Shown here: positions 19,642 to 39,451 of the stretch, in pieces
Layout of the letters: every line of letters begins with the position of its first letter
Position numbering within the stretch: the first letter of the stretch is position 1
From: Candidatus Saelkia tenebricola
Lineage (GTDB): Bacteria; Omnitrophota; Gorgyraeia; Kaelpiales; Kaelpiaceae
Reading direction: 5' to 3'
Assembly: GCA_030765145.1 (NCBI GenBank)
Contig: JAVCDA010000002.1
Span: forward strand, 16,320-80,319
DNA: 64,000 nucleotides
Notes under the pieces: model-generated
The model's input: only the letters and a program-made list of their open reading frames with translations
The model's database searches: none
Told to the model about the DNA's origin: nothing
Made by a program: the position numbers and the translations under genes

Positions 19642-21363
19642 TTACCCCCCGGAAGCAGAGTATGTTCTTGTTGCTAATGTTACTCTATCTATTGTAAGGT
19701 CTGATGCAGACCAAAGCAGCTGCGATAGCTCTGAAATATTTAAAGGTTCCCTGCTGTATTTTCTTATCGATTTTCTTTTATATAGTGCTTCTTCAATAGA
19801 TATTTTTCCTTGATAACGAGAGTGAGGAAGCTGAATTATTTGCTCGGCAAACACTGTCGAATTCAGTGAAAATAGAAAAATAAAAGCTATTATTGTTTTA
19901 AGCTTTAAATATTGCAACTCTGTTTTAAAGCGTCTTTTAAGTTTTTCCAATAATAATTTTAAGCCGTACTTTTTATACCGCGAGAATAAAAATTTTAAAG
20001 GATTTTTAGTCAAGCTCGTTTTCAGAAATAAATGATCTCGTATAATAAGAGCAGTGTTTTTAATATTCTCGATATTGTCTTTGTTATATTGAGGATAATT
20101 TACTATAACTGAATTGGCTCCGTCAAAAGAATGAGAATCATTATTAGCAAGGTATCCATTTTTTTTCACCCAGGAATAAAACGGTGTACCCGGAAAAGGT
20201 GTTGCTGTTGATATTTGAGCATTTGCAATTAGTCTCTCTTTAATTAAACGTTTCATAAAATTAATTGTTTGGCTATCTTCTGCCGGGGTAGCTTCGGGCA
20301 GCCCAAACATAAAAGTGGCATACATCTTAAGACCGATGTTCTTAGCGTGTTTTAATAAATCAAGGATTCGGTCTGTTTCCATAGGTTTACCTATTTTTTT
20401 GCTCAATGGTAAAGAGGCTGTTTCAATTCCGAACCGGATTTTATAATATCCTGCTTCTTTCATGATTGTTAAAATATCTTTATCTAAGATTCTGATATCG
20501 CACATTGCTTCATATTTTAGATTTGAAAGATTTTCTTCTTTAAGTTTGGAGGCAAGTTCTTTAATAAAATCTTTATCACCGTTATGAGTTTCTTCATCAA
20601 AAAATATGCCTTCCATTTGGGGGTATTTATTTTTCAAATATTTAATTTCATTTATTATATTATTTACATTTCGAGGTCTCCAGTTCCCCTGGGCATAATA
20701 TATATTTCTTGAGACACAAAAATTACAGTTCCCCCTGCATCCTCTTGAAGCATAAGCCTGGATTTCTATATATTCTGAACTTGGTTCACCGGGTGTAGCA
20801 TAATCTATTCTTTTAATATCAATGTCTTCCGGAAAAGGTAGGCGAGAAAAATCAAGAAGCGGTCTTCTTTGATTAGGATATAATCCTAAAATAGTATTTT
20901 TATCTTTATTTTGAAATAATTCTAACAAAGTCAGCTCAAATTCACCTATACAAACATAGTCTACGCCTTCTTTTATTAATTCATTTGGAAATACTGACGC
21001 ATGTTGGCCTACAAATACAACTTTAACAGGTAATTTCTTTTTTAAGTTTTTTCCAACCCAGAGATTCTCTTGTATTGTTCTGGTAGATGACTCTATTATA
21101 AGCCAATCAGGTTTTTGGTCTAAAATTTTAGCAAGTGTCTGGTATTTGTCCCACCTTTTAAGACAAGGATCTATCAATTTGATTGCATGAGGAGTTTCCT
21201 GCTTTAATAAAGACGAGGTATAAGCTAACTCCCAGGGGTAATAAGCAAACCAGGATGATTTCAGGCGCACGCCTTCAGACCAGCGAGAAGGAGAATGAAT
21301 TATGTAATATCCCAGGTCATCTTTACCTACAGAGTTAGTTAAAATAATTTTTTCTTTAAACAT
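19642..21363 (-). CDS. B12-binding (class B) radical SAM protein with C-terminal TM segment and truncated SagB/nitroreductase-like tail
   Basis: Radical SAM motif CRGNCNFC. The N-terminal region is homologous to the N-terminus of the 1928-aa protein, including a shared SRW motif (HSPSRWSEGVRL vs VRAGSRWPHLKH). After a TM-like segment (IIAFIFLFSLNSTVFA), the last ~55 aa (IEEALYKRKSIRKYSREPLNISELSQLLWSASDLTIDRVTLATRTYSASGG) resemble the first third of a SagB-type dehydrogenase and stop abruptly. Confidence 0.8.
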   Translation of the reverse strand: MFKEKIILTNSVGKDDLGYYIIHSPSRWSEGVRLKSSWFAYYPWELAYTSSLLKQETPHAIKLIDPCLKRWDKYQTLAKILDQKPDWLIIESSTRTIQENLWVGKNLKKKLPVKVVFVGQHASVFPNELIKEGVDYVCIGEFELTLLELFQNKDKNTILGLYPNQRRPLLDFSRLPFPEDIDIKRIDYATPGEPSSEYIEIQAYASRGCRGNCNFCVSRNIYYAQGNWRPRNVNNIINEIKYLKNKYPQMEGIFFDEETHNGDKDFIKELASKLKEENLSNLKYEAMCDIRILDKDILTIMKEAGYYKIRFGIETASLPLSKKIGKPMETDRILDLLKHAKNIGLKMYATFMFGLPEATPAEDSQTINFMKRLIKERLIANAQISTATPFPGTPFYSWVKKNGYLANNDSHSFDGANSVIVNYPQYNKDNIENIKNTALIIRDHLFLKTSLTKNPLKFLFSRYKKYGLKLLLEKLKRRFKTELQYLKLKTIIAFIFLFSLNSTVFAEQIIQLPHSRYQGKISIEEALYKRKSIRKYSREPLNISELSQLLWSASDLTIDRVTLATRTYSASGG

Positions 21364-22453
21364 CTTTAAGAATAGAAATTAGTTTTTGAGTCTGGTTTTC
21401 TACTGTGTAATTATTCTCTATCTTTTCTCTGGCATTTGCACCGATTTTTTTTCTTAAAGAAGAATTTCCAGCGAGTTTTAGAATCGATCCTTTAAATTCC
21501 TCTTTATTTTTAGCCAGCAACCCATCTACTCCATCGTTAATAATATTTTGAGTTTCTCCAAAAGATGTTGCTATAACAGGAATACCTTTGGCCATAAATT
21601 CCAGTATTTTAACCGGAAATTTTGCTTCTGTGAATTTGTTTTCTATTGCAATCGGGAAGATACCTATATCAACATTATCTAAATATCGGGGTATATCACT
21701 TGGCGTAATCCAGCCTTTAAATGTCACATTTTTAATCCCCTCTTTTTTTGCCTCATCTTGAATGTTGGATTTCCATATTCCATCACCGATAATTTCTAAT
21801 TGTATATTAGGAATATCTTTAACTATTTCCAATATCCATTGCAGATTGATAAAATCTTCATGTCTGAACATTGTTCCTATCCAGGCTAATATCGTAATTT
21901 TTTTGTTCATATGGTTTTGTTTTATCTTAAAGTGCTCTATCTCTATTCCGGGAGCAAGATAAAATACACGGGGGGTAATATTTTTTATGTAATTATAAAG
22001 AAAGTTGCTTCCGGCCAAATTAAATAAAGCTTTTTTAGCTGTTATTTTAAAAATAAATTCGGCTTTTGATTTAGGTAAGAATCCCAATATGGGAGTTATA
22101 TTTTCCCTGAATTCCCAATCGTCAATGTCATAGATGTATTTTATCTTATTTTTAAATGCATAAAAAAGAGGTCCGAAAGAATGATAATTCAGGCGCTGGA
22201 TAATCAAAAGTGGGTTTTTGAATTGTTTAAGGTATGTATATGCTTTTTTATTATATTTTATTTTATCAGCTATAGTAAGAAAACTTTCTAAATTACCGCT
22301 TAAAGCTCCTAAGTTTTCAGAAAAGGACAATACACAAGACGTATAACCTTGTTTTTGTAAACAATTTGAGAAATTATATGCTCTATACCTTGCCCCGGGT
22401 AGAACTTTGCTTTCTCTGGTAATGAATATTATTTCGTAATTTTTTAAATTCAT
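21356..22453 (-). CDS. family 1 (GT4-type) glycosyltransferase
   Basis: C-terminal GT-B motif EAKFPVKILEFMAKGIPVIATSFGETQNIINDGVDGLL. The annotated start overlaps the upstream gene by 71 nt, so the true start may be slightly downstream. Confidence 0.75.
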   Translation of the reverse strand: MNLKNYEIIFITRESKVLPGARYRAYNFSNCLQKQGYTSCVLSFSENLGALSGNLESFLTIADKIKYNKKAYTYLKQFKNPLLIIQRLNYHSFGPLFYAFKNKIKYIYDIDDWEFRENITPILGFLPKSKAEFIFKITAKKALFNLAGSNFLYNYIKNITPRVFYLAPGIEIEHFKIKQNHMNKKITILAWIGTMFRHEDFINLQWILEIVKDIPNIQLEIIGDGIWKSNIQDEAKKEGIKNVTFKGWITPSDIPRYLDNVDIGIFPIAIENKFTEAKFPVKILEFMAKGIPVIATSFGETQNIINDGVDGLLAKNKEEFKGSILKLAGNSSLRKKIGANAREKIENNYTVENQTQKLISILKDV

Positions 22454-23615
22454 ATCCTTTCAAAACCTGCTCATAAATTTGCAACAAATTCTCAGCCGTT
22501 GTGGGCCAGTTATATTTTTCTTCAGCTCTTTTTCTTGATAAAACTGCCATCTTCTCTCTTAAGGCAGGTTGAGATAACAGTTCATTTATTCCGCCAGCAA
22601 ACACAAGATGATTACCTGGTTCTACCAGAATTCCTACTCCACCAACCATATTCCTGACCTCGCCTACGTTACTTGCTACAATGGCTTTGCCAGAAGCTAG
22701 GTATTCAGCTAGTTTTAAGGGGCTTTTAGATTGAGTTATGGCATTATTTTCAAAGCAGGCTGCACAAACATCGGCTGCTGCTATATATTTTGCTGTTTCT
22801 TCATGCGGAATAAATCCTGTAAAGATAATCTTATCTCTTAGCCCTAAATCTAAAGCTAATGATTTCAGTTCGCTTAATCTATACCCTCCGCCAACTATAA
22901 AAAACATAGCTGTAGGATACCATTGAATCACAACACTTACAGCATGGATAAATAGTTCTGCATATTGTGCTCCATGCAGCTGACCTAAATACAATACGAT
23001 TGGTCCAGTTAAACGGTATTTTTCTCTTATCAGGGTATTTTTATTTTGAGGATTAAAAATAGTCAGGTCAGCTCCTACATGAGCAGATGTGGTTCTTTTT
23101 GGGGATACTCCATATTCATTTGTAGCAAGCTGTATGAGACGATTACTTGAACAAGAGATTGAATCGACAAATTTCGGTAAAGCCCTTTCTAAGATCCACA
23201 TATATATCCCTATAAGAGGAGAAGCTGGTTTACCATAAAAATAAATTTTTGTTTCCCAATCATCCCAATCATAATGAATGGGTTTGTTCTGAATCCAGGA
23301 AGCTATGATTGCAGGGATAGATGCATAATGGAAACACTTTTGAAAATGCACTATATCAGCCCATTTTATTTCTCTTAAAAGTTTAACAGTGTTTTTAAAA
23401 AGGATATTTATTCCTCTTCTTCTATCCATTGGTATGATTTCTATGTTGTGCCAAATAAACCGCTGTTTTTTTAAATCTTTTAAATGTAGCGGAAAATATG
23501 CAATCTTTACACTGTGGTTAACTTTTATAAATTCCCGAGCTAAAGATTTAATTCGTATAGTCCAGGGTTCTGAGAGATCAAATAAATCATGCGGATGTAT
23601 CATAAATATTTTCAT
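22383..23615 (-). CDS. family 1 (GT4-type) glycosyltransferase
   Basis: GT-B C-terminal motif TGFIPHEE...PLKLAEYLASGKAIVASNVGEVRNMV, with an E-x7-E-like region. Confidence 0.8.
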   Translation of the reverse strand: MKIFMIHPHDLFDLSEPWTIRIKSLAREFIKVNHSVKIAYFPLHLKDLKKQRFIWHNIEIIPMDRRRGINILFKNTVKLLREIKWADIVHFQKCFHYASIPAIIASWIQNKPIHYDWDDWETKIYFYGKPASPLIGIYMWILERALPKFVDSISCSSNRLIQLATNEYGVSPKRTTSAHVGADLTIFNPQNKNTLIREKYRLTGPIVLYLGQLHGAQYAELFIHAVSVVIQWYPTAMFFIVGGGYRLSELKSLALDLGLRDKIIFTGFIPHEETAKYIAAADVCAACFENNAITQSKSPLKLAEYLASGKAIVASNVGEVRNMVGGVGILVEPGNHLVFAGGINELLSQPALREKMAVLSRKRAEEKYNWPTTAENLLQIYEQVLKGYEFKKLRNNIHYQRKQSSTRGKV

Positions 23616-23621
23616 AACAAT

Positions 23622-26600
23622 TTAACTTCCGGGGAATATCACCATTCGCCGTAACTTTCTTAAAATCCAGAGGTAAGTTTCAGCAATTAAAGTTAATAGA
23701 ATTATTAAAACCAGATATGGCAGCTTATACATTCTCACCCTAGGTAGAATCACAGTAGATTGGATGTTTTTTTCTTTTTTAGGTAAATCTTGGATTGAAT
23801 TAACAATAGTCTTTAGCGTTTCAATGTCATGTTTCTCAACATTTATTTGTTTACCTTCCTCTATATTTGTCTCCATTACCTTAAATCCCAACTGTTTGGC
23901 AACTTCTAAGATGCGTTCTCCTCTTGTTTTTCTTATATCGTATGTATTGCCATCATACGTTTGCCAGAGATAATGCCAATTATTTTGAGGAAGAGGTTTT
24001 AAATTGTATTCAGTTATGTTTTTATATATTGCTGTTCCGGCAATTAAATGAAGTGTGTTTATTGATTTTATAGTGTTGATGTAATTGCGATTTCTTTTTA
24101 TAAATTCAATTGTTTCTTGAAATTCCTTTTCTCCTTCAGATGGAAATCCAATCATAGTAAATATTTCTGTCTCAATTCCGGCTAAAGATGATTTTTTTAT
24201 AAATTGTTCCGCATCGCTTGATAAATAGGATTTTCGCATTTTTTTTAAGACTTTATCCGATGCACTTTCAAGTCCTATTTGAAGATTAATACAACCTGCT
24301 TGTTTCATTTTTTTCAAAATAGGTATATCCATATCTTTTCGAGGTATTGCTTCTCCTGACCAGGTAATATTCAATTTGTTTTTTATAATCAAATCGCATA
24401 ATTTATCCAATACTTTAGGATTACCATTTATTAAAGGATCGCAGATTGTGAAGTTTTTTATATTGTTATGGTGAAGATGATACTTTAGTTCCTGAAATAT
24501 ATGTTCGGCAGTTCTTGATCTATATTTAGATACGAGCTCACAGTTTATGCAAAATGCGCATTTACCTGTGCATCCCCGAGACCATTCCAAAATCAATGAT
24601 TGCCCGAAGTAAAGGTTAAGATTAAAATCTTCATAAGTTGGGAAAGGTAATGTATCTAAATCCTCAATTAACTCACGAGGAGTATAAATCCATAAGCCGT
24701 TTATTTTGGAAACAGTTCCCTTTATAATTCCAGAGCATTCCTTATCAAGTAGCTCAATCAATGCTTCTTCCCCCTCTCCCACAACGAAATAGTCAATATC
24801 ATCAGATATATTATCTATAAAAATTTTACGGGAATGTTCACTTAAACATGCCGGTCCACCGAGAATAATTTTTTTTGTTTTATCACGTTGTTTTATTCTT
24901 TTAATAAATTCAATAGTAATCCGTTCTTTGGGGTCTACAATTGAAAATCCTATATAGCCTGCTTCTGTTTCAAGTATTCTATCAACTGCTTCATTTATTT
25001 TTTGATCAAAAAATTTACACACTACAGGAAACCAGTCTTCTTCACTCCAGAAGTTTTTATTTTCTACATGCCACATCAATTTAAGATCTTCTGGTGCACT
25101 ATTATAAAAATCTATATTGAAGTCACAAAGAACAGCTTTATATCCATGGTTCTTTAACATACTTGCTAAGTAAGCCATACCTACGGGAGGATTGTTAATT
25201 CCCCAGGGCGGTGTAGTAATAAGTGCTATATGAGGTTTATTGGATACACTTGTTTTTCTTTGAGGTAATGCTGTTGCTTCTGTTGTATATGAAATATCTA
25301 ATTTATTAAGAAGATTATGGACTTTTTCTACCCTTTCCATACGTATATCAAAGTTATTTACATCCCTTATGAACCAGTTGGAATCGGGATTCTCCTTGGG
25401 GAATTCTATGTGATATCTTCCAGGATTAGAAAACAATTCGGATCCTGCCATTATGAATAAAGGATTTACAGATTTGACAAAATCAATGTGGTTTTTGTTT
25501 TCTTTTATAAAATCCAGAGTTAAATTTAAATCATCTGCTGTCTCTTGTGGAAAACCGACAATAAAATATAATACATTTTGAATACCTGCTTTTTTTGTCA
25601 ATTCCAGTGTGTGTGAGGAATCTTTAGTTGAGAATGTTTTACCCATAAGATGTAATATTTTATCACTTCCGCTTTCTGTTCCGTATTCCAATCTGAAGAA
25701 TCCGGCAGCTTTCATTTTCTTAAGCAAAGACAGGCTCATATCTCTTGGTATAGCAAGACCGGTAAGGTTGATAGAGAGATGGTTTTTTATTATAAGGCTA
25801 CAGACTTCATCTAGCCATTTTAAGTCTGCATTAACTGAAGAATCTACAATTGAGAAATAAATTTTGCCCAAAGTGTTTTTGTAGAACTTAAGCTCCTCAA
25901 CTATTCTTGTGGGAGACTTTTTTTTGTAGTATTTGCTCAGAACTTTAAAATCACAGAAGGAACATTTGCCGATACATCCCCGGGACCATTCAACAGCCAA
26001 GCTGTTTTTTGCAATGTATGAACCAAGAGAAAAATTTTTATATTTTGCATAAGAATAGGAATCTAATTTTTTTAAAGTTTTTATCGAAGATGTAATTCTG
26101 CTTTTATCTTTAAGAACAATGATGTTTTCTACATCGTTTATGGATTGGTTGTATGTTATTTTATCAATCAGTTTAGTAATGGCCTCTTCACCCTCTCCGC
26201 ATACGATAACATCAACTTTATCTTTTATTAATTCTAATAATTCTTCTCGCTGCTCTTTTACAGTAACTGAAATTCCTCCCAGTATTATCCATTTTTTAGG
26301 TGCGTGTTTCTTTATCTCCTCAATCACCCATTTAATCATCAAATACATTGAATTTGAGGGAACTGAAAATCCTACGATTTTAGCATCATTGTTTTTCTCA
26401 AGAGTTTGTTTTATTTCATTAAAAATATCACTATATTTTTTTAGAAGGTAAAAAATAAATTCTGGTTTTCTCCAATATAAAGTATGGTCCATTCGCCAGT
26501 ATTTTTTGTCTTCTTCTTTTACTTTATTGTATAAGAAAATATTTATGTCCAAAACCTCAACATCAAAACCTTTATTTTCCAAAACTTCTGATATTACGGC

Positions 26601-27554
26601 CAGGCCTACAGGCGGCCTTTCAATACCCCAGGGAGGAGTGATAATTAATTGAATCTTTTTTTTAAAACTACTGGGGGTAGTTTGTGCACATTCACATTTT
26701 AGGCATATAAAATTATTATCTGGAGGAATTTCACCCTGTATTTTCTTTCTAATGGCGGTATATTCTTGTCCTGTCCAGATGTTTTGGATAGATTGTTTTT
26801 TTAAATTACCCAATATAACTTCTGATTTCCAGTCCATACAGCATAAGACTACATCTCCGTTACTCAATATGTGAATCATTTCATTAGTCCATATGGAATT
26901 GCAACCGTATATTTTTTTATGTTTTATTTTTGGAAGGATCGGTACATTTCCGGCCCGGGATATCGGATTTGAATAAACATTAATGCGAGATAATCCTTGA
27001 TTCTCCCAGAAACTTACAGCTTCTTCTATTTCTTTATCATTGAGATATGAGTTTTTAAGCATTGTTACCATGATAAAGTCAGAGATTTCACCCTTAATTT
27101 GTTTAGAGATTTTTATGAAATTCAGCATATTATCCAGTGCTTTTTCAGGATCTATTCCCATAACTGAAGATATAGTGTTGTTTCTGATGCCATGCAGGCT
27201 GAAACCTATCCAGTCAATGTTGCTCTCTATCAATCTATGTGTGAAATCAGAATCCAGTAAAACACCATTGGTAAGGATATGTGTAGAAACTTCAGGTGAT
27301 TTTTTTTTGATGTAAGTAATTTTATCCGGCAACTCTTTATCCAAAAGAGGTTCATTCATAAGATAGGGCATTATAACTTGGACTTCTTTTTGTTTTGAAC
27401 ATTCGTCGATAATGTTTTTAAAAAGATTGCCATCTATTTTTTCACCGGAGATTGTATCTTTAATATGAGGGTAGGGGCAGAAAAAACATTTCCCGTTACA
27501 TCCGGATATAGTTTGAATCATTATATGAGTTGGGAACTTAAGTTTTGGTGTCAT
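23622..27554 (-). CDS. giant three-module radical SAM protein (SPASM-type rSAM + two B12-binding class B rSAM modules) with C-terminal membrane anchor
   Basis: There are three CxxxCxxC motifs: CNGKCFFC (N-terminal; downstream SPASM-like Cys-rich region GDVVLCCMDW...FICLKCEC), CIGKCSFC and CTGKCAFC. The latter two are each preceded by a Rossmann-like B12-binding segment (ITPPWGIERPPVGLAVISEVL... and ITTPPWGINNPPVGMAYLASML...). The C-terminal hydrophobic helix is LPYLVLIILLTLIAETYLWIL. Confidence 0.85.
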   Translation of the reverse strand: MTPKLKFPTHIMIQTISGCNGKCFFCPYPHIKDTISGEKIDGNLFKNIIDECSKQKEVQVIMPYLMNEPLLDKELPDKITYIKKKSPEVSTHILTNGVLLDSDFTHRLIESNIDWIGFSLHGIRNNTISSVMGIDPEKALDNMLNFIKISKQIKGEISDFIMVTMLKNSYLNDKEIEEAVSFWENQGLSRINVYSNPISRAGNVPILPKIKHKKIYGCNSIWTNEMIHILSNGDVVLCCMDWKSEVILGNLKKQSIQNIWTGQEYTAIRKKIQGEIPPDNNFICLKCECAQTTPSSFKKKIQLIITPPWGIERPPVGLAVISEVLENKGFDVEVLDINIFLYNKVKEEDKKYWRMDHTLYWRKPEFIFYLLKKYSDIFNEIKQTLEKNNDAKIVGFSVPSNSMYLMIKWVIEEIKKHAPKKWIILGGISVTVKEQREELLELIKDKVDVIVCGEGEEAITKLIDKITYNQSINDVENIIVLKDKSRITSSIKTLKKLDSYSYAKYKNFSLGSYIAKNSLAVEWSRGCIGKCSFCDFKVLSKYYKKKSPTRIVEELKFYKNTLGKIYFSIVDSSVNADLKWLDEVCSLIIKNHLSINLTGLAIPRDMSLSLLKKMKAAGFFRLEYGTESGSDKILHLMGKTFSTKDSSHTLELTKKAGIQNVLYFIVGFPQETADDLNLTLDFIKENKNHIDFVKSVNPLFIMAGSELFSNPGRYHIEFPKENPDSNWFIRDVNNFDIRMERVEKVHNLLNKLDISYTTEATALPQRKTSVSNKPHIALITTPPWGINNPPVGMAYLASMLKNHGYKAVLCDFNIDFYNSAPEDLKLMWHVENKNFWSEEDWFPVVCKFFDQKINEAVDRILETEAGYIGFSIVDPKERITIEFIKRIKQRDKTKKIILGGPACLSEHSRKIFIDNISDDIDYFVVGEGEEALIELLDKECSGIIKGTVSKINGLWIYTPRELIEDLDTLPFPTYEDFNLNLYFGQSLILEWSRGCTGKCAFCINCELVSKYRSRTAEHIFQELKYHLHHNNIKNFTICDPLINGNPKVLDKLCDLIIKNKLNITWSGEAIPRKDMDIPILKKMKQAGCINLQIGLESASDKVLKKMRKSYLSSDAEQFIKKSSLAGIETEIFTMIGFPSEGEKEFQETIEFIKRNRNYINTIKSINTLHLIAGTAIYKNITEYNLKPLPQNNWHYLWQTYDGNTYDIRKTRGERILEVAKQLGFKVMETNIEEGKQINVEKHDIETLKTIVNSIQDLPKKEKNIQSTVILPRVRMYKLPYLVLIILLTLIAETYLWILRKLRRMVIFPGS

Positions 27555-30500
27555 GTGTTCTTAGAGAATATTCTTTCGTGAATTTCTTCATTGTGCATTA
27601 AATTGTCACATTCTTTAAAACAATCCATTTTTGCAAAATAAGGTTGGGTTTTTTTTAACAATTTAGCGCGAGCTCTAAATCCATTGTAGAGCTGAGAATA
27701 CCAGATGTCGTTGAATGATTGTAGCATAATGTTGCCCATCGGGTAATTTATACCTCTACAGCAAGGTATGATTTCTCCATTCCCCAAGAGGCGGGTGAAA
27801 AACCATCCCACATAACACGGTATCTTATCAATTCTGTTTCTGTCATAATTTCCGGTTGGGGTTCTTGATTCAATTCTTTCTTTAAAACCAATTAGATTCT
27901 CTATTTCTATATTGTTATCTTTTAAATAGTTTTCTGCTTTGATTAATTCTTCTTTTGATTTAATGTATTGATTTTCGTTTAAAAGAAGAAAATCAGTTTC
28001 TCCTTTAAAAACGTCTGCAAATGTAAAATAAACAGCATCTGCACCTGTTTCTTTGGCAAATTGTGCCATTTGGAATATTTTATCAAAATTATTGTTTGTT
28101 ATTACATTTGCGATAGTAACTTTAGTTTGTTTTCCCTTTAAGGAGTTTAATATTGTTATGTTTTCTCTGATCTTTTCAAAATCTGCAATTTTTGTTCCAG
28201 GATGCATTTGAGTATAAGTGTAAGCATCTGGAGCCCAAATACTTAGGGCCATTTCATCCAGATTGAGTTTTATTATATCTTTTAACATGCTTTCTTTGAT
28301 ATTGTAGAAATTTGTTGTAAGAGTTGTTTTTATATTTCTTGATTTTGTCAGGTCCAATAAATCCAGAATTCCTTCATAAAGCAGAGGTTCTCCCCCACCT
28401 GTAAAACGTATTATTCTTGCCCCCATACCAGATGCCTCATCAATAAAAGATGCCATTCTTTTATACGGTATTTGTTTGGCTAACCACTCAGGTGAAGGTT
28501 TATGTTCTTTAAGATGTGTAGAATACAACCAGCAGGCATTGCATTTCAACTGGCATTTATTGGTTACATCAATCACTATGTGCTCCGGACCCTGATAAGC
28601 ACATCTACCGTTAATTATCCCAGCAGTTAACTTAATGGGTGTTTTAAGCAAAGGTTTTTTGTTGATAGGTAATTGGGGAGCTTTTTTTCTCTTATATCGT
28701 TTATACTTTACAAATAGATTAAGAAAAAATCTTTCTACATGTGTAAGTGACATTATTTTTTTATGCATATGGATATTTCTTCCGATATCATCACAGCTTT
28801 TATAACAGCCAGCTTCTTCTGTATTGGGATCGTTGCCTATCAGTTTAAAAAAATTATCATTCTTCGCATAACAAAGCATCTTCTTCCGACAGTATATCTG
28901 TTTCGGCGAATTCCATATTTGAGAGAATTTTTCTTCATACAAATTACCTACAGGAAACCTGTGAGATTTAAGGCAGGTATTGATATTACCATCAGGTAAA
29001 ATCCTTGCAAATAACCAGCCTATATAACATGGAATAGCATCGATAATATTTTTATCGTATTTGGCTTCTAAAGTTTCTTTCTCCTTGCTGATTCTTCTTA
29101 AGAACTGGTCAAATCTAAAGAGATGTACTCCCTTGTAATCGAAATTGAGCATCATTTCTCTTGCCACACTTTGACATGTTTTATGTAATTGTTTTCTTTC
29201 CTCCCTATTTAAAGCTAATGCCTCAGTTTTACCGGGTATAGTATCTATCAGAGTAAATTCCACAGATTCACATTTTGTATATTGAGCAAATTCAATCATT
29301 TGTTTTATCTCATGGTAGTTTAAATTGAATATCACCTGATAAAGTTTTATATAAGGTGTTTTGTTTTTTTGTTTGTTAAGATATGTCAAATTCTCTTTAA
29401 TCTGTGCAAAAGTAGCTTCGGTTTTGTTAGGATGAGTTCTAGCATAAGTTTTTGGAGTTCCTGCCCAAACACTTACGGTTAAATGATCAACACCGATGTC
29501 GATAATACGGTCTATTTTTTCCTTACTTAGAAGCGTAAAATTAGTATTTACATAGCAAATAAGACCCAGTTTTTTTGTGTATTCTAAAATCTGCATTATC
29601 TCGGGATGCATAAATGGCTCACCGCCACCGGAATAATAAACCTCTTTTGCGCCAAGCGTCTTAGCTTCATCTAAAAGTTCCTTTATTATCGCTTTTGGCA
29701 GGTATTGTTTTTTCATCTCTTGCGACATTTTTTTTTCTTCTAAAAGAGGAGAGTTGCACCAGCATCCTATACAATCATTATTACAATCATTCGTCAGATC
29801 GATTTGAATATGAAACGGTCCTTTGTAGGCAAATTCACCGTCAAAAACACCTATTATATCCAGGTAGTGATTAATAAAATTTCTGGGGATTAAAAATTTT
29901 GTTATTCGTTTAAAAGTAGCCTTTCTTCCGTGTGTTTTAAAAGATTCTTTGAGCAGTTTTAACGGTTCTTTTTTTTTATATACACTCGACGGGTCACAAA
30001 AGCAATTTTTATCATAATCCTGTGTTTTTATTTCTAGTTCCAGTCTTGCAAAATGAGGAAAATAAGAACCGGAAAACAATTCGATTTTATGGGGCCCATT
30101 TTTAAGGTATACTTCTATTTCGGGAAAAAGTTTAAGGTGTTTTTTAGTCCAGCCCGAAGTAGAGCTTTTCATAATCTTACCAAAATATTCACCGTCTATT
30201 TTGATCTCAACAGGTCTGGGTATTTCAGCAGCATATTTACTGAAGAGCTTATAGAGACCAGGTTCATTAGTATCAAAGAGATATTCTGCAAATCCAAAAC
30301 CTGCACCGCCGTCTATAACAAGATTATTACCGAAACCATTATCTGCTTTGTTTAAATTACCCCGGGAAAAACTTTGAGAAGGAATAATAATCTTATTCTT
30401 GTTATAAATAGTTTTTATGGATGGCTGCTTTTGAAATTCCGTTTTTTTTGTATGTTCCAAAACTTTTTTATGCACCATTAAATTCATCCCCAGATTATCG

Positions 30501-33337
30501 CAAACTTTGTAACAATTTATTTTTTCGAAATATTTGTCTTTTTTATTCAGAAAACGCGTTTTATGCCTAAATTCATCATAAAGGTCTGAATTCCAAATAT
30601 GGGAAAATCTTTTTTCTTTAACATTACCTAATATTAATTCATCTGCTTTGCAGCACGGTTTTACATCACCATTTGTTGTTATGCGTGTAAAATTCCATCC
30701 TGCATAACACGGTAGAGTATCTATAAAATCCCCATCCAAATAAGTTGTTTCTTTAACGATTGAATTAACTCTTCTTATAAAAGTTTCGATGCCTAAAATT
30801 GTTAAAAGATGTACTTCAAACGGAGTGTTTTTATCTTTATCATAACAGGAAGTGCGTAAAACACATTTTTTACATGTATTGTCGGAAAAATGATATTTCA
30901 CATGTCTTACATCTTTATCAGGATAAGGTGTTTTTCCTGTACTGTAGTTACCTTTAGGGCATTTTGCCATCCTAATCCCGTTAATTAATTGAAAATTTGA
31001 GTCTATTTTCTTTAAAAATCTTCCAAAATCAGAGAGTTCTTTACGGTGACTAGGGTTATCATAAATCAATAAATCTCGATCTGATATGAAATCAGGTATA
31101 TAATCCGACCTGTTTTTGAATTTATTAAGTATATCTTCAATCTCTTCTGCTTCTTTTTTTGTAATAAGCAAATGGTCTGTTTTTCCAGGGATAGAATCCA
31201 TAAATTGAAATTCTAAATAATCAACACCCATGTTAAGAGCAAAATCGAGCATTTCAGGTATATTTCTGTAATTTACTTTAGAAATCACATTGTATATTTT
31301 AAGAGCAGGAGTATCGTTTTTTCTCGTTTTTATTAAATATTTAAGATTGTTTCCTATTTTTTCAAACATATCTTCGCTTGATCCAGGATGGGTTTTACAA
31401 TATGTCTTAGCATCCCCAGCCCATAGGCTTGCTGTAATGTAATTTAATCCTAATCGGATGAGGCGAGTAATTGTTTCTTTATCAAAAAGAGTGAAGTTTG
31501 TTATCAAATGACATCTCATTCCTCGGGCTTTTATATATTTAATAATTTCAAAAATTTCCGGATGCATTAATGGTTCTCCACCGCCTGTGATCTGTATTTC
31601 TTCGGTATCCAGCTTATGAAGTTCATCAACCAGATTCTTTATAACGTTAAGGTCAAGATGTTTTTGAAGTTCGGGATCCTGGCGATTTTTGTTTATAAAT
31701 GGTGAGTAAAGCCAGCACCCAATGCATGAAATATTGCATTTGTTGGTTACGTCAATAACAGCAATTTTAGGTCCGCAATATGCTCCGTTTCCTTTTAAAA
31801 TACCTTTAAGCAGATCATTGCTTTTTCTGGTTATATCCGTTATTTCTTTGGTTTTGGAGAATGAAGACATATGTTTTTTTACATTAAGATAAGAGTTTTT
31901 CTTTTCCCAGGCAAATTTAATTCCATAGAGTTTCACACAATCCAGAAAAAGTTTGAGTTCTTGCGGTAATGTTTTTTTAAGCAAAAGTTTGTTTTTATGC
32001 TCGAACCAGCTTCGATATGCTTTGTTTAAATAATTCTCCAATTCCTCAGGGGTGACATTCTCAATGTTTATTACCGCTGCTTTATGACCGTCAAATAACC
32101 CCCAGTCATTCGGTTCTTCCCAGCCTCGCTCTTTAAGAATATTAAAATAACTTGTTCCGGGAAATGGTGTTGTTATTGAGAACTGAACGGAATAGGGATT
32201 CAATTTTTTTGCTAAGTCAATTGTTTCTTCTATTGTTTCTTTTGTTTCGCCCGGCAAACCGAATGTAAAGGTTAGATGAGTTTTAATCCCCAGCTTGTTT
32301 GTTAAATGTATCATTTTTACAGCATGTTTTAAGTCCATGTTTTTATTGGCGTTGTCGACTAATTTTTGAACTGCGGACTCAACGCCGTATTTTACAGAAT
32401 AAAGACCTGATGAGCGAAGCTCACATAGTAGCTCTTCGTCCATTAAATCAGGCCTTGCCATAATTGCCCAAGGGAATTTTAATTTCCTATTTTTTATTTC
32501 TTTGGCAATGTTAATAAGAAATTTCTTATTAACATTTGCTGTATCATCGTCTATATAAATAGATTTAAATCCCATTTCTTTTATTAGATATTCCATTTCA
32601 TCTACAACTTTATAAGGATTGCGTAATCGGTAAGTACTACCTTGATACATAATGTGCGGCCAGAGACAAAAAATACATTCATAAGGACATCCTCTTGAGG
32701 CCCACATCTGAACAGATGGAAGAGGCATGCCTCCAGGAGCATCAACGTAGTTTTGCATTTGGATATTATTTCTATGTGGCCAGGGTAATGAGTCCAATTC
32801 TTTTATAAGAGGCCTGGGGTGGTTTTTACACAATTGCCCGGAGTGCCTGTATATCAATCCTTTAACAGATGAAAAATCCTTATTCTGTTTTATTGTTTGC
32901 GCTAATTCAAGAAGAGTTTCTTCATATTCTCCTACCATTACAAAATCTATAAAAGGTTTGTTTTCTAAAAACGACAAGTTTCTCATGTTGTATTCAGGTC
33001 CACATACAACAATCGGTGCGATATTTCTCAATTGTTCTAACAGAGATAAGTCATACTGTAATGATGGTGTTGATGTCTCTGCTACAATTAGATCAGGATT
33101 TTTTTGTTTTAAGAGTTTCATGAAATCTGATATTTCAATCTGTTCTGCAATAGCGTCTATAAACTCTGCCTGAAATCCATTTTTTATAAGTAAAGAAGTA
33201 GCATATCCCAGGAAAAATGGATAAGGTAAATAGTCTTTCTCGCTATAAGGATGTTTTAGATGAGGCCACCTGGATCCGGCTCGCACTCCCCAAAGGCCGT
33301 TACTTTTCCAGGGCATATTGGTAATTATTATTTTCAT
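27551..33337 (-). CDS. giant four-module radical SAM protein (B12-binding class B rSAM + three paralogous SPASM-domain rSAM modules)
   Basis: There are four CxxxCxxC motifs: CPYECIFC (in a B12-binding module, N-terminal ~470 aa), CNISCIGC, CNNDCIGC and CQLKCNAC. Each of the latter three is followed by GGGEP and a SPASM-like Cys cluster (CY.GW.F.R....G...PCC...C...C). The three SPASM modules are mutually similar, indicating internal triplication. There is a 4-nt overlap with the downstream rSAM gene. Confidence 0.85.
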   Translation of the reverse strand: MKIIITNMPWKSNGLWGVRAGSRWPHLKHPYSEKDYLPYPFFLGYATSLLIKNGFQAEFIDAIAEQIEISDFMKLLKQKNPDLIVAETSTPSLQYDLSLLEQLRNIAPIVVCGPEYNMRNLSFLENKPFIDFVMVGEYEETLLELAQTIKQNKDFSSVKGLIYRHSGQLCKNHPRPLIKELDSLPWPHRNNIQMQNYVDAPGGMPLPSVQMWASRGCPYECIFCLWPHIMYQGSTYRLRNPYKVVDEMEYLIKEMGFKSIYIDDDTANVNKKFLINIAKEIKNRKLKFPWAIMARPDLMDEELLCELRSSGLYSVKYGVESAVQKLVDNANKNMDLKHAVKMIHLTNKLGIKTHLTFTFGLPGETKETIEETIDLAKKLNPYSVQFSITTPFPGTSYFNILKERGWEEPNDWGLFDGHKAAVINIENVTPEELENYLNKAYRSWFEHKNKLLLKKTLPQELKLFLDCVKLYGIKFAWEKKNSYLNVKKHMSSFSKTKEITDITRKSNDLLKGILKGNGAYCGPKIAVIDVTNKCNISCIGCWLYSPFINKNRQDPELQKHLDLNVIKNLVDELHKLDTEEIQITGGGEPLMHPEIFEIIKYIKARGMRCHLITNFTLFDKETITRLIRLGLNYITASLWAGDAKTYCKTHPGSSEDMFEKIGNNLKYLIKTRKNDTPALKIYNVISKVNYRNIPEMLDFALNMGVDYLEFQFMDSIPGKTDHLLITKKEAEEIEDILNKFKNRSDYIPDFISDRDLLIYDNPSHRKELSDFGRFLKKIDSNFQLINGIRMAKCPKGNYSTGKTPYPDKDVRHVKYHFSDNTCKKCVLRTSCYDKDKNTPFEVHLLTILGIETFIRRVNSIVKETTYLDGDFIDTLPCYAGWNFTRITTNGDVKPCCKADELILGNVKEKRFSHIWNSDLYDEFRHKTRFLNKKDKYFEKINCYKVCDNLGMNLMVHKKVLEHTKKTEFQKQPSIKTIYNKNKIIIPSQSFSRGNLNKADNGFGNNLVIDGGAGFGFAEYLFDTNEPGLYKLFSKYAAEIPRPVEIKIDGEYFGKIMKSSTSGWTKKHLKLFPEIEVYLKNGPHKIELFSGSYFPHFARLELEIKTQDYDKNCFCDPSSVYKKKEPLKLLKESFKTHGRKATFKRITKFLIPRNFINHYLDIIGVFDGEFAYKGPFHIQIDLTNDCNNDCIGCWCNSPLLEEKKMSQEMKKQYLPKAIIKELLDEAKTLGAKEVYYSGGGEPFMHPEIMQILEYTKKLGLICYVNTNFTLLSKEKIDRIIDIGVDHLTVSVWAGTPKTYARTHPNKTEATFAQIKENLTYLNKQKNKTPYIKLYQVIFNLNYHEIKQMIEFAQYTKCESVEFTLIDTIPGKTEALALNREERKQLHKTCQSVAREMMLNFDYKGVHLFRFDQFLRRISKEKETLEAKYDKNIIDAIPCYIGWLFARILPDGNINTCLKSHRFPVGNLYEEKFSQIWNSPKQIYCRKKMLCYAKNDNFFKLIGNDPNTEEAGCYKSCDDIGRNIHMHKKIMSLTHVERFFLNLFVKYKRYKRKKAPQLPINKKPLLKTPIKLTAGIINGRCAYQGPEHIVIDVTNKCQLKCNACWLYSTHLKEHKPSPEWLAKQIPYKRMASFIDEASGMGARIIRFTGGGEPLLYEGILDLLDLTKSRNIKTTLTTNFYNIKESMLKDIIKLNLDEMALSIWAPDAYTYTQMHPGTKIADFEKIRENITILNSLKGKQTKVTIANVITNNNFDKIFQMAQFAKETGADAVYFTFADVFKGETDFLLLNENQYIKSKEELIKAENYLKDNNIEIENLIGFKERIESRTPTGNYDRNRIDKIPCYVGWFFTRLLGNGEIIPCCRGINYPMGNIMLQSFNDIWYSQLYNGFRARAKLLKKTQPYFAKMDCFKECDNLMHNEEIHERIFSKNT

Positions 33338-36621: not shown

Positions 36622-36668
36622 AGTTTTTCCTAATTCTGTTTTTTACTGCATAATATTTTATAACAATT

Positions 36669-38945: not shown

Positions 38946-38950
38946 ATTAA

Positions 38951-39451
38951 TTAAAATTTTTCCCAGTGCAGCAATTCGTCAAGAGGTCTCTTCTCTGCCT
39001 TAGTAATTAAATCATTTTTAGGATAACCCAAAGATATTATGCTTATTAGATTGTATTCTGATGGTGCTTTTAACAGTATTTTTATATCTGGAACATAATC
39101 TTTTTTATCTCCGGCAATCCAGCAGGATGCTATTCCATAACTCGTTGCAGCAAGCAAAATATTTTCAGTTGCAGCTGAACAGTCCTCAAGGTAATATTTC
39201 GTTGGCCTGGAGAATATAACTATACAAGCAGAAGCTTCTTTTAAAAAAAGTGCGTTTCTGTTTGTTAAGCGGGAAATTTCTTTAAGAGTTTCTTTGTTCT
39301 TTATTACAATAAATTCCCAAGGTTCTTCTCCTCTTGCTGTAGGAGCCATATGACCGCAGTCGATTAAGTCTAATAAGATTTCATCGGAGATTAGTTTGTC
39401 TTTATATTCCCTAATGCTGCGTCTTTTTTTTATTATTTCTCTTGTCCCCAT
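38951..39451 (-). CDS. nitroreductase-family flavoprotein
   Basis: KKRRSIREYKDKLISDEILLDLIDCGHMAPTARGEEPWEF is a nitroreductase N-terminus; it lies in tandem with the previous nitroreductase. Confidence 0.75.
   Translation of the reverse strand: MGTREIIKKRRSIREYKDKLISDEILLDLIDCGHMAPTARGEEPWEFIVIKNKETLKEISRLTNRNALFLKEASACIVIFSRPTKYYLEDCSAATENILLAATSYGIASCWIAGDKKDYVPDIKILLKAPSEYNLISIISLGYPKNDLITKAEKRPLDELLHWEKF

What the first reader, a model, noticed from the sequence alone, without database searches (positions are those of the whole stretch)
23622..27554. 1310-aa tri-module rSAM (SPASM + 2x B12-binding) ending in a transmembrane helix
Seen: CNGKCFFC followed by a SPASM-like CC/C.C cluster, then two repeats of a B12-binding Rossmann segment (ITPPWGI(E/N)(R/N)PPVG) each followed by EWSRGC(I/T)GKC(S/A)FC. 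The last ~25 aa are a hydrophobic helix (LPYLVLIILLTLIAETYLWIL), giving a C-terminal membrane anchor. Together with the TM segment in the 573-aa rSAM, this suggests the rSAM machinery is tethered at the membrane next to the Wzm/Wzt exporter. There is a 4-nt start/stop overlap with the 1928-aa gene.
Basis: partly seen in the sequence, partly recalled or inferred. Interest (0 to 1): 0.7.

Follow-up and report, generated by a model that had tools for sequence, protein, structure and literature searches.

The report
Membrane-anchored triple radical-SAM glycan-tailoring enzyme
One 1,310-residue protein of an uncultured Omnitrophota bacterium fuses three radical-SAM enzymes to a conserved C-terminal membrane helix and sits in a sugar-polymer gene cluster, pointing to an undescribed, radical-chemistry-heavy way of decorating a membrane-bound glycan.

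Summary
ORF 23622..27554 (-) encodes 1,310 aa with three CX3CX2C radical-SAM cores, and its ATGA start overlaps the stop of the 1,928-aa gene.

- **Modules.** The N-terminal unit is BtrN-like with a single auxiliary cluster, so it is Twitch-type rather than full SPASM. The other two units are paralogous B12-domain (class B) modules, 35% identical to each other.
- **Hydrophobic helix.** Residues 1277-1301 are the only TM-grade segment in the protein. The helix recurs in 57 distinct tails from relatives, as basic flank, hydrophobic helix, basic flank, then IIFPGS or LLGG. No library model covers it.
- **573-aa TM claim.** Not supported. That segment lies in an 85-aa extension missing from the 488- and 490-aa orthologues.
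- **Partners.** The gene travels with a set of further rSAM domains (an HpnJ-like class B unit plus three Twitch units) and a GT4 glycosyltransferase, in Omnitrophota and other uncultured anaerobes. Wzm/Wzt lies nearby in only 10 of 34 helix-bearing loci.

Best reading: a membrane-tethered multi-rSAM tailoring enzyme acting on a lipid-linked sugar or glycan at the cytoplasmic membrane face, before export. Substrate, chemistry, cobalamin use and helix topology are all inferred. I rate it a new variant of known enzyme kinds, of moderately high interest.

The parts
23622..27554 (-). Whole gene: 1,310-aa fusion of three radical-SAM units plus a C-terminal hydrophobic tail
   Evidence: ORF list and translation. 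Pfam finds Radical_SAM x3, B12-binding x2 and SPASM x1.
26670..27554 (-). Module A (residues 1-295): BtrN-like radical-SAM core with a Twitch-type auxiliary-cluster domain. The CX3CX2C motif is at residues 19-26. Invariant cysteines are C218, C238, C239, C284 and C287.
   Evidence: phmmer against PDB gives BtrN at E 1e-10, with C238, C284 and C287 aligned to BtrN cysteines. The motif scan finds CX14GX4C plus CX2C and no CX2CX5CX3C. The AF2 model has pLDDT 76 and its best Foldseek hit is BtrN 4m7t at E 2e-11.
25245..26657 (-). Module B1 (residues ~300-770): B12-binding Rossmann-like domain plus radical-SAM core (CIGKCSFC at 527-534)
   Evidence: Pfam B12-binding best stretch 385-462 and Radical_SAM 522-683. 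35% identical to B2 over 455 aa, E 1e-90. NCBIfam PhpK, ladderane-B12 and MCR Gln C-methyltransferase families hit, all below cut-off.
23820..25232 (-). Module B2 (residues ~775-1245): second B12-domain plus radical-SAM core (CTGKCAFC at 995-1002)
   Evidence: The AF2 model has pLDDT 80. Foldseek against PDB returns TsrM at 5e-19, then OxsB, AprD4, MgmA, CysS and TokK. NCBIfam rSAM_ocin_1 matches residues 838-1153.
23727..23819 (-). Linker (residues ~1246-1276): low-confidence, probably flexible, ending in a basic patch (PRVRMYK)
   Evidence: AF2 pLDDT is below 50 for model residues 482-500, which are protein residues 1256-1274.
23652..23726 (-). C-terminal hydrophobic helix (residues 1277-1301: KLPYLVLIILLTLIAETYLWILRKL), the putative membrane anchor
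   Evidence: KD peak 2.22, the only such segment in the protein. The Hessa-scale sum is -1.07, using scale values recalled from memory. AF2 predicts a helix at 1278-1306. Across 57 distinct tails, mean Eisenberg hydrophobicity is 0.80 and mean hydrophobic moment 0.13.
23625..23651 (-). Conserved basic and terminal motif (RRMVIFPGS). The family consensus is KKLRRMIIFPGS or KNKxLLGG(R/K).
   Evidence: Alignments and tails. No NCBIfam model matches the tail.
27551..33337 (-). Partner gene: 1,928-aa fusion of four radical-SAM units, an HpnJ-like B12-domain unit followed by three Twitch-like units. Its stop overlaps the start of the 1,310-aa gene.
   Evidence: Pfam and NCBIfam. Motif scan. Its modules co-occur with the tri-module gene in most loci that have flanks.
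22383..23615 (-). GT4 glycosyltransferase (410 aa), the most conserved non-rSAM partner of the tri-module gene
   Evidence: Pfam. Scores 335-405 bits in loci from several phyla.
34759..37430 (-). Wzm-like permease (36669..37430) and Wzt/TagH-like ATPase (34759..36621, 620 aa, with an unannotated 381-aa C-terminal extension)
   Evidence: Pfam ABC2_membrane and ABC_tran. NCBIfam TagH and galactan Wzt and Wzm, below cut-offs. The extension has no Pfam hit.
19642..21363 (-). 573-aa HpnJ-like B12-domain radical-SAM protein. Residues 489-573 (nt 19645..19899) form a non-conserved extension that holds the weak hydrophobic segment.
   Evidence: Pfam and NCBIfam. Orthologues are 488 and 490 aa and have no hydrophobic segment.

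Best explanation
The gene encodes a tail-anchored, three-active-site radical-SAM tailoring enzyme of a glycan pathway.

**Shown**
- It has three complete rSAM cores. One is BtrN-like with a single auxiliary [4Fe-4S] site. Two are paralogous class B-fold units, each with a B12-type Rossmann domain.
- A probably flexible linker joins the last unit to a conserved hydrophobic helix flanked by basic residues.
- The gene sits in one tightly packed operon: GT2, Wzm, Wzt, two unknown paralogues, the 1,928-aa four-rSAM protein, this protein, two GT4, a further B12-rSAM, and GT2.
- In every locus checked for this (L001, L002, L003/L004, L005, L007), it is the only rSAM polypeptide of the set with a hydrophobic segment at its C-terminus.

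**Inferred**
[quoted passage not shown] Through translational coupling or complex formation it may hold the otherwise soluble 1,928-aa partner there too.
- At the membrane, the rSAM domains act in series on a polyprenyl-phosphate-linked sugar or growing glycan made by the GT4 and GT2 enzymes.
- B1 and B2 most likely add methyl groups to unactivated sugar carbons, with methyl-cobalamin as intermediate donor, as GenK, Fom3, TokK and CysS do.
- Module A most likely abstracts a sugar C-H and, via its auxiliary cluster, oxidises or epimerises that position, as BtrN and DesII do.
- The finished glycan is then exported by Wzm/Wzt in this genome. In relatives it is flipped and transferred by a GT-C enzyme.
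For: - **Architecture.**
- **Class B fold.**
- **Module A.** It is BtrN/Twitch-like, and the other top fold hits include the sugar-acting DesII.
- **Helix conservation and properties.**. It is hydrophobic but not amphipathic: mean Eisenberg hydrophobicity 0.80 and mean hydrophobic moment 0.13 over 57 distinct tails.
- **Single anchor.** In the loci checked, it is the only rSAM of the set with a C-terminal hydrophobic segment.
- **Glycan context is conserved across divergent loci.**
  - GT4a scores 335-405 bits in most loci with flanks.
  - Wzm/Wzt is present in 10 loci.
  - Other loci carry PMT_2 GT-C plus a short GT2, NDP-sugar epimerases/dehydratases, a split transketolase, a GHMP kinase, a sulfatase, a carbamoyltransferase or MBOAT.
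- **No RiPP signature.** No PqqD/RRE domain was found in either giant rSAM protein.
- **Lipid-bound sugar analogue.** The nearest curated family for the partner class B modules is HpnJ, below cut-off. From my own knowledge, HpnJ acts on a lipid-bound sugar.
- **Operon packing.** Start/stop overlaps run through the cluster.
Against: - No substrate, product or cofactor was observed.
- Every NCBIfam hit is far below its curated cut-off, so no reaction can be transferred by homology.
- AprD4 carries the same N-terminal domain. From my own knowledge it works without cobalamin. It is among the top fold and profile hits, so cobalamin use and methylation are not assured.
- The best NCBIfam hit for B2 is a RiPP C-methyltransferase family, and SPASM/Twitch enzymes are common in RiPP pathways.
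- Both flanks of the helix are strongly basic. A simple N-in/C-out tail-anchor topology would therefore move about four positive charges across the membrane. A true TM predictor could not be run.
- Seventeen of the 51 loci lack the helix, so anchoring is not essential to the family's chemistry.
- The cluster has no recognisable initiating phosphoglycosyltransferase.
Confidence: 0.5

Rival explanations
1. It is a peptide (RiPP) or protein maturase. On this reading the class B units C-methylate amino-acid side chains, the Twitch units make cross-links or epimerise residues, and the ABC-2 transporter exports the product.
For: The best NCBIfam hit is TIGR03975, a RiPP-maturation rSAM C-methyltransferase family, and ApyD also scores. 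SPASM/Twitch rSAMs are a mainstay of RiPP pathways (papers listed). Fold hits include SuiB, SkfB and EpeE. Two small conserved proteins of unknown function lie upstream.
Against: - No PqqD/RRE domain is present. Module A starts its CX3CX2C motif at residue 19, leaving no room for an N-terminal recognition domain.
- No precursor-like gene was recognised.
- The most conserved partner across phyla is a GT4 glycosyltransferase.
- Loci are filled with sugar enzymes, Wzm/Wzt or GT-C.
- All RiPP-family scores are far below cut-off (235 bits against 282 for TIGR03975).
Confidence: 0.12
2. It is a membrane-lipid or glycolipid tailoring enzyme. The rSAM set would modify the lipid moiety or a head-group sugar of a membrane lipid, as happens for hopanoids, ladderanes and tetraether lipids. 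The helix would simply place the enzyme in the bilayer with its substrate.
For: HpnJ is the nearest family for two partner modules, and TIGR04072, the lipid-biosynthesis B12/rSAM family, scores 215 bits on this protein. GDGT-MAS appears among the fold hits for module A. A membrane anchor fits a lipid substrate. Relatives occur in archaea and in lineages discussed as tetraether producers.
Against: The cluster holds no isoprenoid, fatty-acid or glycerol-lipid genes. Four glycosyltransferases and a polymer-type ABC-2 exporter dominate it. All lipid-family scores are below cut-off. This rival overlaps the main explanation if the substrate is a glycolipid.
Confidence: 0.15
3. The hydrophobic tail is not a bilayer anchor. 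It would instead be a protein-protein contact or an in-plane element, for example one that docks on a polytopic partner. Alternatively, the enzyme works on soluble nucleotide-sugars and the tail serves only assembly or turnover.
For: Both flanks are equally basic, which makes full translocation of the C-tail unfavourable. A conserved terminal motif (IIFPGS or LLGG) and a conserved acidic or aromatic pattern inside the helix suggest specific recognition rather than a generic anchor. Seventeen of the 51 loci do without the helix.
Against: Mean hydrophobicity of 0.80 with a hydrophobic moment of 0.13 over 19 residues is typical of a membrane-spanning helix, not an amphipathic or soluble one. AF2 places the helix away from the catalytic domain, behind a low-confidence linker. 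From memory, bacterial tail-anchored proteins that end in basic residues exist (ElaB and YqjD); this was not checked here.
Confidence: 0.15

Closest known systems
Cobalamin-dependent (class B) radical-SAM enzymes with solved structures: TsrM, OxsB, MgmA (MCR glutamine C-methyltransferase), CysS, TokK
   Same: Modules B1 and B2 share the N-terminal B12-type Rossmann domain followed by a CX3CX2C rSAM barrel. Foldseek E-values run from 5e-19 to 1e-14, and Pfam B12-binding scores E 3e-24.
   Different: Sequence identity is only 14-18%. Two such units are fused in tandem to a third rSAM and a membrane helix. The context is a glycan cluster rather than an antibiotic, cofactor or MCR pathway. Cobalamin binding is untested.
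BtrN (butirosin 2-deoxy-scyllo-inosamine dehydrogenase), a Twitch-domain rSAM
   Same: It is the best sequence and fold match for module A. Both use a four-Cys auxiliary-cluster pattern: one Cys before the beta-hairpin, one after it, then CX2C. BtrN's substrate is carbohydrate-like.
   Different: Identity is about 19% and E only 1e-10. Module A has two extra invariant cysteines (C52, C239). It is fused rather than free-standing. The reaction is unknown.
HpnJ (hopanoid-associated B12-domain rSAM)
   Same: It is the nearest curated family for the partner class B units: the N-terminal module of the 1,928-aa protein and the 573-aa protein. From my own knowledge, HpnJ acts on a sugar attached to a membrane lipid, the kind of substrate proposed here.
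   Different: Scores are 245 and 177 bits against a cut-off of 578, so these are not equivalogs. No hopanoid genes are present. B1 and B2 of the 1,310-aa protein are only 25-30% identical to these units.
WbdD of the E. coli O9a Wzm/Wzt pathway (from my own knowledge; not tested here)
   Same: It is a glycan-modifying enzyme of an ABC-transporter-dependent pathway. It is held at the cytoplasmic membrane face by its C-terminus and recruits a soluble partner there.
   Different: WbdD is a kinase plus a conventional SAM methyltransferase with an amphipathic C-terminal helix. Here the chemistry is radical SAM, and the helix is uniformly hydrophobic (hydrophobic moment 0.13).
FbiC (a CofG-CofH fusion), the textbook protein with two rSAM domains
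   Same: Several rSAM cores sit on one polypeptide (mentioned in a paper found).
   Different: FbiC has two domains, is soluble and works in F420 biosynthesis. This system places three and four rSAM cores on two adjacent polypeptides, and relatives carry up to six CX3CX2C motifs in 2,778 aa.

Membership tests
Radical SAM superfamily (PF04055) | A CX3CX2C motif that binds the SAM-cleaving [4Fe-4S] cluster, within a partial TIM barrel | tested here: met
   Three motifs lie at residues 19, 527 and 995, all invariant in the ten aligned sequences (the window protein plus nine homologues). Pfam scores E 3e-57 over three stretches. The AF2 models give rSAM folds.
Class B (cobalamin-dependent) radical SAM | An N-terminal B12-binding Rossmann-like domain fused to the rSAM core | tested here: met
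   PF02310 matches two stretches at E 3e-24. The top fold matches are cobalamin-bound TsrM, OxsB, CysS and TokK.
Class B (cobalamin-dependent) radical SAM | Actual binding and use of cobalamin | not testable with these tools
   AprD4 shares the domain and is among the top hits. From my own knowledge it works without cobalamin. Sequence alone cannot decide.
SPASM-domain rSAM (PF13186, seven-Cys motif) | CX9-15GX4C - gap - CX2CX5CX3C - gap - C, binding two auxiliary clusters (definition quoted from PMC6231123) | tested here: not met
   Only CX14GX4C (218-238) and CX2C (284-287) are present, and C289 is not invariant. The Pfam SPASM model still matches at E 1e-12, presumably because Twitch and SPASM domains are related.
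Twitch-domain rSAM (BtrN/MoaA type) | A truncated SPASM domain with one auxiliary cluster ligated by up to four Cys | tested here: met
   Four invariant Cys are present. C238, C284 and C287 align with BtrN cysteines, and C218 sits 20 residues upstream of C238. That these BtrN cysteines are the cluster ligands is from my own recollection. BtrN is the best PDB hit by both sequence and fold.
TIGR03975 RiPP-maturation rSAM C-methyltransferase | Whole-protein score at or above the curated cut-off of 281.85 bits | tested here: not met
   234.9 bits, summed over modules.
Tail-anchored inner-membrane protein | A single C-terminal hydrophobic helix long and hydrophobic enough to span the bilayer, with no N-terminal signal peptide | tested here: met
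   KD peak 2.22 over 19 residues at 1280-1298, with no other hydrophobic segment in the protein. AF2 predicts a helix at 1278-1306.
Tail-anchored inner-membrane protein | Demonstrated membrane insertion and N-in/C-out topology | not testable with these tools
   No TMHMM or DeepTMHMM was available. Both flanks are basic, so topology is ambiguous.
Wzm/Wzt (ABC-2) glycan export pathway, for the neighbouring genes | An ABC-2 permease plus a TagH/Wzt-type ATPase next to glycosyltransferases | tested here: met
   PF01061 and PF00005 both match. The best NCBIfam hits are TagH, galactan Wzt and Wzm, and KpsM, all below equivalog cut-offs.

The most novel reading that the evidence does not exclude
Omnitrophota and several other uncultured anaerobic lineages, including DPANN archaea, may carry a previously unrecognised radical glycan-tailoring assembly line. 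Seven or eight radical-SAM active sites on two or three giant polypeptides would be pinned to the membrane by a dedicated, conserved C-terminal anchor module. Together they would convert a lipid-linked sugar into a heavily C-methylated, oxidised or ring-rearranged surface glycan with no known counterpart.
Probability: 0.3. Interest if true: 0.8.

Novelty: new variant of a known kind. Interest (0 to 1): 0.6.

Why it matters
**Unusual enzymology.**
- Radical-SAM tailoring of carbohydrates is known from a few soluble, single-domain enzymes of antibiotic pathways, such as BtrN, DesII, AprD4 and GenK.
- Here a conserved set of seven to eight rSAM domains is fused into 1,310- and 1,928-aa proteins and embedded in a cell-surface glycan export cluster.
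- The set also carries its own conserved membrane-anchor module.

**What it would imply.**
- If the inference holds, anaerobes with small genomes spend a large share of coding capacity on O2-independent radical chemistry for their surface sugars.
- It would also supply a natural example of how several rSAM active sites are organised at a membrane.

**Practical value.**
- The tail motif (basic flank, hydrophobic helix, basic flank, then IIFPGS or LLGG) has no model in NCBIfam; Pfam gave no hit there in the whole-protein scan. It could be used to mine for membrane-associated rSAM enzymes.

**Where it occurs.**
- The host, Ca. Saelkia tenebricola, and most other carriers are uncultured Omnitrophota. 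From my own knowledge this phylum is suspected of host-attached lifestyles, in which surface glycans should matter.

Tried and rejected
- **Exact look-up of the 1,310-aa protein** found nothing on record. The organism was identified indirectly: the 226-aa neighbour is 100% identical to a Ca. Saelkia tenebricola protein.
- **Literature.** Searches covered rSAM plus Omnitrophota, rSAM in O-antigen, LPS or capsule, membrane-anchored rSAM, and multi-rSAM fusions. None described this system. The paper naming the organism does not mention rSAM, LPS or cobalamin.
- **C-terminal sorting signal** of the PEP-CTERM, LPXTG or GlyGly-CTERM type. Rejected: the protein has no N-terminal signal peptide, and NCBIfam finds no such model in the tail.
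- **Tat-exported tail-anchored protein** with a periplasmic catalytic domain, which would satisfy the positive-inside rule. Rejected: there is no twin-arginine leader, since the CX3CX2C motif starts at residue 19. The 1,928-aa partner also has no hydrophobic segment.
- **Second anchor in the 573-aa rSAM.** Rejected as a conserved feature. The extension matches the N-terminus of nitroreductases only weakly (Pfam E 0.017; local BLAST E 0.003 against the neighbouring nitroreductase).
- **Assigning a reaction from NCBIfam.** Every hit is below its cut-off.
- **Deciding cobalamin dependence from fold.** The cobalamin-bound hits and AprD4 score too similarly to tell apart.
- **Pfam on the two unknown proteins and the Wzt C-terminal extension** returned nothing credible.

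Full report

ORF 23622..27554 on the minus strand encodes 1,310 aa. The upstream ORF 27551..33337 encodes 1,928 aa and shares 4 nt with it (ATGA).

- CNGKCFFC at residues 19-26.
- ...ITPPWGIERPPVG... near residue 303 and ...TTPPWGINNPPVG... near 778.
- EWSRGCIGKCSFC at 522-534 and EWSRGCTGKCAFC at 990-1002.
- The C-terminal sequence KLPYLVLIILLTLIAETYLWILRKLRRMVIFPGS.

Pfam finds Radical_SAM in three stretches (E 3e-57), B12-binding in two stretches (E 3e-24) and SPASM at 222-287 (E 1e-12). A Kyte-Doolittle scan with a 19-residue window finds one segment at or above 1.6 in the whole protein. It spans 1273-1301 and peaks at 2.22. A sum over the Hessa biological hydrophobicity scale, with values recalled from memory, is -1.07 for residues 1280-1298.

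**2. Anatomy**

*Module A (residues 1-295).*
- It has CX3CX2C at residue 19, so there is no room for an N-terminal peptide-recognition domain.
- Its C-terminal part has CX14GX4C (218-238) and CX2C (284-287). It lacks the CX2CX5CX3C element that defines a full SPASM domain (motif definition quoted from PMC6231123).
- C218, C238, C239, C284 and C287 are invariant in ten aligned sequences (the window protein plus nine homologues). C289 is not.
- BtrN is the only PDB sequence hit (E 1e-10). C238, C284 and C287 align with BtrN cysteines.
- BtrN is also the best fold hit for an AF2 model of pLDDT 76: Foldseek E 2e-11, target-normalised TM-score 0.68. SuiB, DesII, MoaA, anSME and SkfB follow closely.
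- Module A is therefore Twitch-type, with one auxiliary cluster.

*Modules B1 (~300-770) and B2 (~775-1245).*
- They are 35% identical over 455 residues (E 1e-90), which indicates an old internal duplication.
- They are only 25-30% identical to the 573-aa protein and to the N-terminal unit of the 1,928-aa protein. Those two are each other's closest relatives, at 30% identity, and HpnJ is the best curated match for both.
- An AF2 model of B2 plus the tail (pLDDT 80) matches TsrM, OxsB, AprD4, MgmA, CysS and TokK at E 5e-19 to 1e-14.
- The caveat is AprD4, which has the same domain. From my own knowledge it does not use cobalamin.
- All NCBIfam hits are below their cut-offs, so no specific reaction can be transferred.

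*The tail.*
- In the AF2 model, residues 1256-1274 have pLDDT below 50, and residues 1278-1306 form one helix with block-mean pLDDT of about 78-92.

**3. Is the helix conserved?**

All nine full-length homologues (44-76% identity) end with the same element. These include proteins from Ca. Kaelpia aquatica and Ca. Kaelpia imicola.

A search of 1.84 billion representative proteins with residues 111-1310 found 1,635 relatives at E <= 1e-30. Many are fusions of two to five modules. Of the best 148, 22 end in a hydrophobic helix with the same flanks. They range from single-module proteins of about 550 aa to four-module proteins of about 1,800 aa.

In 77 genomic loci recovered from species-representative genomes, 51 ORFs carrying a B2-type module have a complete C-terminus, and 34 of those end in the helix.

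Across 57 distinct tails the pattern is constant:

| Element | Value |
|---|---|
| K/R in the 12 residues before the helix | 4.6 on average |
| Mean Eisenberg hydrophobicity, 19-residue core | 0.80 |
| Mean hydrophobic moment | 0.13 (uniformly hydrophobic, not amphipathic) |
| K/R in the ~14.5 residues after the helix | 4.2 on average |
| Terminal motif | IIFPGS or LLGG |

No NCBIfam model matches the tail. It is a real, conserved and apparently unmodelled C-terminal module.

Because both flanks are equally basic, I cannot say from sequence whether the helix spans the bilayer (N-in/C-out) or sits as a monotopic anchor. No dedicated TM predictor was available.

**4. The second anchor claimed in the 573-aa protein**

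- Its only hydrophobic segment (residues 488-510, KD 1.76) lies in an 85-residue C-terminal extension.
- The orthologues are 488 and 490 aa, stop just before that point, and have no hydrophobic segment.
- The extension reads like a signal peptide followed by the start of a nitroreductase. That match is weak: Pfam E 0.017, and local BLAST E 0.003 against the neighbouring nitroreductase.
- It is best explained as a fused gene fragment peculiar to this genome.

**5. Context**

The genes from 38314 down to 18688 form one minus-strand block with overlaps or gaps of a few bases, apart from one 47-nt gap:

1. GT2
2. Wzm-like permease
3. Wzt/TagH-like ATPase, with a 381-aa unannotated extension
4. Two unknown proteins that are paralogues of each other
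5. The 1,928-aa protein
6. The 1,310-aa protein
7. Two GT4
8. The 573-aa B12-rSAM
9. GT2

Housekeeping genes flank the block: lepA, pgm, rpe, ruvX and the trp operon on one side, panB and gatCAB on the other.

The 226-aa neighbour is 100% identical to a protein of Ca. Saelkia tenebricola, an Omnitrophota MAG from Ace Lake. The paper describing that organism does not discuss this cluster.

The closest loci (L001, L002) are fully syntenic. Distant loci keep the rSAM set but change the surrounding genes:

- PMT_2 GT-C, a short GT2 and GT4.
- A sulfatase, NPCBM proteins and AsnB.
- NDP-sugar epimerases/dehydratases, a split transketolase and a GHMP kinase.
- A carbamoyltransferase, MBOAT and a GDSL hydrolase.

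I compared the window's proteins with all ORFs of the 86 loci. The tri-module gene travels with the three Twitch modules and the HpnJ-like module of the 1,928-aa protein. It also travels with GT4a, at 335-405 bits, in loci labelled Omnitrophota, Wallbacteria, Cloacimonadota and Desulfatiglandales.

Wzm/Wzt homologues lie within the flanks in 10 loci. All 10 are helix-bearing (Fisher p = 0.02, not corrected for phylogeny). Another 24 helix-bearing loci have none. In every locus checked for this (L001, L002, L003/L004, L005, L007), the tri-module protein is the only rSAM of the set with a C-terminal hydrophobic segment.

**6. Most likely mechanism**

*Shown:* a three-active-site rSAM fusion with a conserved hydrophobic tail, encoded in a glycan assembly and export operon, next to and overlapping a four-active-site rSAM fusion.

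*Inferred:*
- The tail holds the enzyme, and possibly its soluble partners, at the cytoplasmic face of the membrane, where polyprenyl-phosphate-linked sugars are built in ABC-transporter-dependent and GT-C-dependent pathways.
- B1 and B2 methylate unactivated sugar carbons through methyl-cobalamin.
- Module A oxidises or epimerises a sugar carbon with help from its auxiliary cluster.
- The product is exported by Wzm/Wzt in this genome.

The common denominator of the two kinds of context, Wzm/Wzt versus GT-C plus a short GT2, is a lipid-linked sugar at the inner leaflet. That explains the anchor better than docking to one specific exporter. I put 0.5 on this overall reading. The architecture itself is near certain.

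**7. Rivals**

- **RiPP or protein maturase (0.12).** For: the best NCBIfam family and the habits of the SPASM/Twitch family. Against: no RRE domain, no precursor gene, and the conserved GT4 partner.
- **Membrane-lipid tailoring (0.15).** For: the HpnJ and ladderane-family similarities and the anchor. Against: no lipid genes in the cluster. This rival overlaps the main model if the substrate is a glycolipid.
- **The tail is a protein-contact or in-plane element, or the enzyme acts on soluble nucleotide-sugars (0.15).** For: basic flanks on both sides, the conserved terminal motif, and the 17 loci without the helix. Against: the helix's TM-like hydrophobicity and its separation from the catalytic domain by a low-confidence linker.

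**8. Comparison with the known, and novelty**

The domains belong to known kinds: class B rSAM and Twitch rSAM. All defining features that sequence and fold can test are met. Full SPASM membership was tested and not met. Cobalamin use and membrane insertion cannot be tested here.

What I could not find described in eight literature searches:

- Fusion of three and four rSAM cores into adjacent giant proteins.
- The conserved tail-anchor module.
- A seven-to-eight-domain rSAM set as a recurrent part of glycan clusters in Omnitrophota and other uncultured anaerobes, with relatives in Woesearchaeota and Nanoarchaeota MAGs.

The nearest functional analogy for the tethering is WbdD of the E. coli O9a pathway. 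That comparison comes from my own knowledge and was not tested here.

I rate this a new variant of a known kind, with interest 0.6.

Noticed in passing
window 19645..19899 (-), residues 489-573 of the 573-aa rSAM: This 85-aa C-terminal extension is absent from the 488- and 490-aa orthologues. It looks like a signal peptide (…IIAFIFLFSLNSTVFA/EQ) followed by a nitroreductase-type N-terminus (…EEALYKRKSIRKYSREPL…). It is probably a fused gene fragment. The nitroreductase match is weak (Pfam E 0.017).
   Followed up: partly
window 33337..34098 (-) and 34082..34762 (-): These two proteins (253 and 226 aa) have no Pfam or NCBIfam match and are paralogues of each other (28% identity over 109 aa, E 5e-9). 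Weak homologues of the 226-aa protein (about 50-90 bits) recur in many distant loci that carry the rSAM set. Its N-terminus weakly resembles the start of the Wzt C-terminal extension (25% over 52 aa). Function unknown; they could be glycan-binding or scaffold proteins.
   Followed up: partly
window 34759..35904 (-), residues 240-620 of the Wzt-like ATPase: This 381-aa C-terminal extension has no family match and is found only in close relatives. From my own knowledge, C-terminal domains of Wzt proteins bind the modified glycan terminus, so this extension could read the rSAM-made modification.
   Followed up: no
window 27551..33337 (-): The 1,928-aa protein carries four CX3CX2C motifs. Its first unit is HpnJ-like with a B12 domain. 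The other three units each have CX(n)GX4C(C) plus CX3C- or CX5C-type pairs rather than the canonical SPASM motif. The C-terminal motif (C..CDN[LF]MHNE..H) is conserved in the 1,412-1,445-aa three-module orthologues of distant loci.
   Followed up: partly
loci L018, L019, L021, L023, L024, L030-L040 and others: The family shuffles its modules freely. ORFs of 493 to 2,778 aa carry one to six CX3CX2C motifs. Relatives occur in MAGs labelled Woesearchaeota, Nanoarchaeota and Methanosarcinales, as well as Desulfatiglandales, Calescamantes, Caldisericota, Cloacimonadota, Wallbacteria and FEN-1099 lineages. MAG labels were not verified; several labelled Planctomycetia look like Omnitrophota.
   Followed up: partly
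window 38349..39451 (-): Two adjacent nitroreductase-family genes (198 and 166 aa) lie between lepA and the first GT2 of the cluster. Whether they belong to the cluster, for example as a reductase for rSAM or cobalamin activation, is unknown.
   Followed up: no
window 23622..27554 (-): The exact 1,310-aa product is not in the 15-billion-protein collection, and the best homologue is only 76% identical. Yet the neighbouring 226-aa protein is present at 100% identity under Ca. Saelkia tenebricola. The giant gene may have been missed, split or marked as a pseudogene in the public annotation.
   Followed up: no
window 21356..22453 (-) and 22383..23615 (-): As listed, the two GT4 ORFs overlap by 71 nt. 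The true start of the downstream GT4 is probably a later ATG. In L001 and L002 the equivalent overlap is about 20 nt.
   Followed up: no
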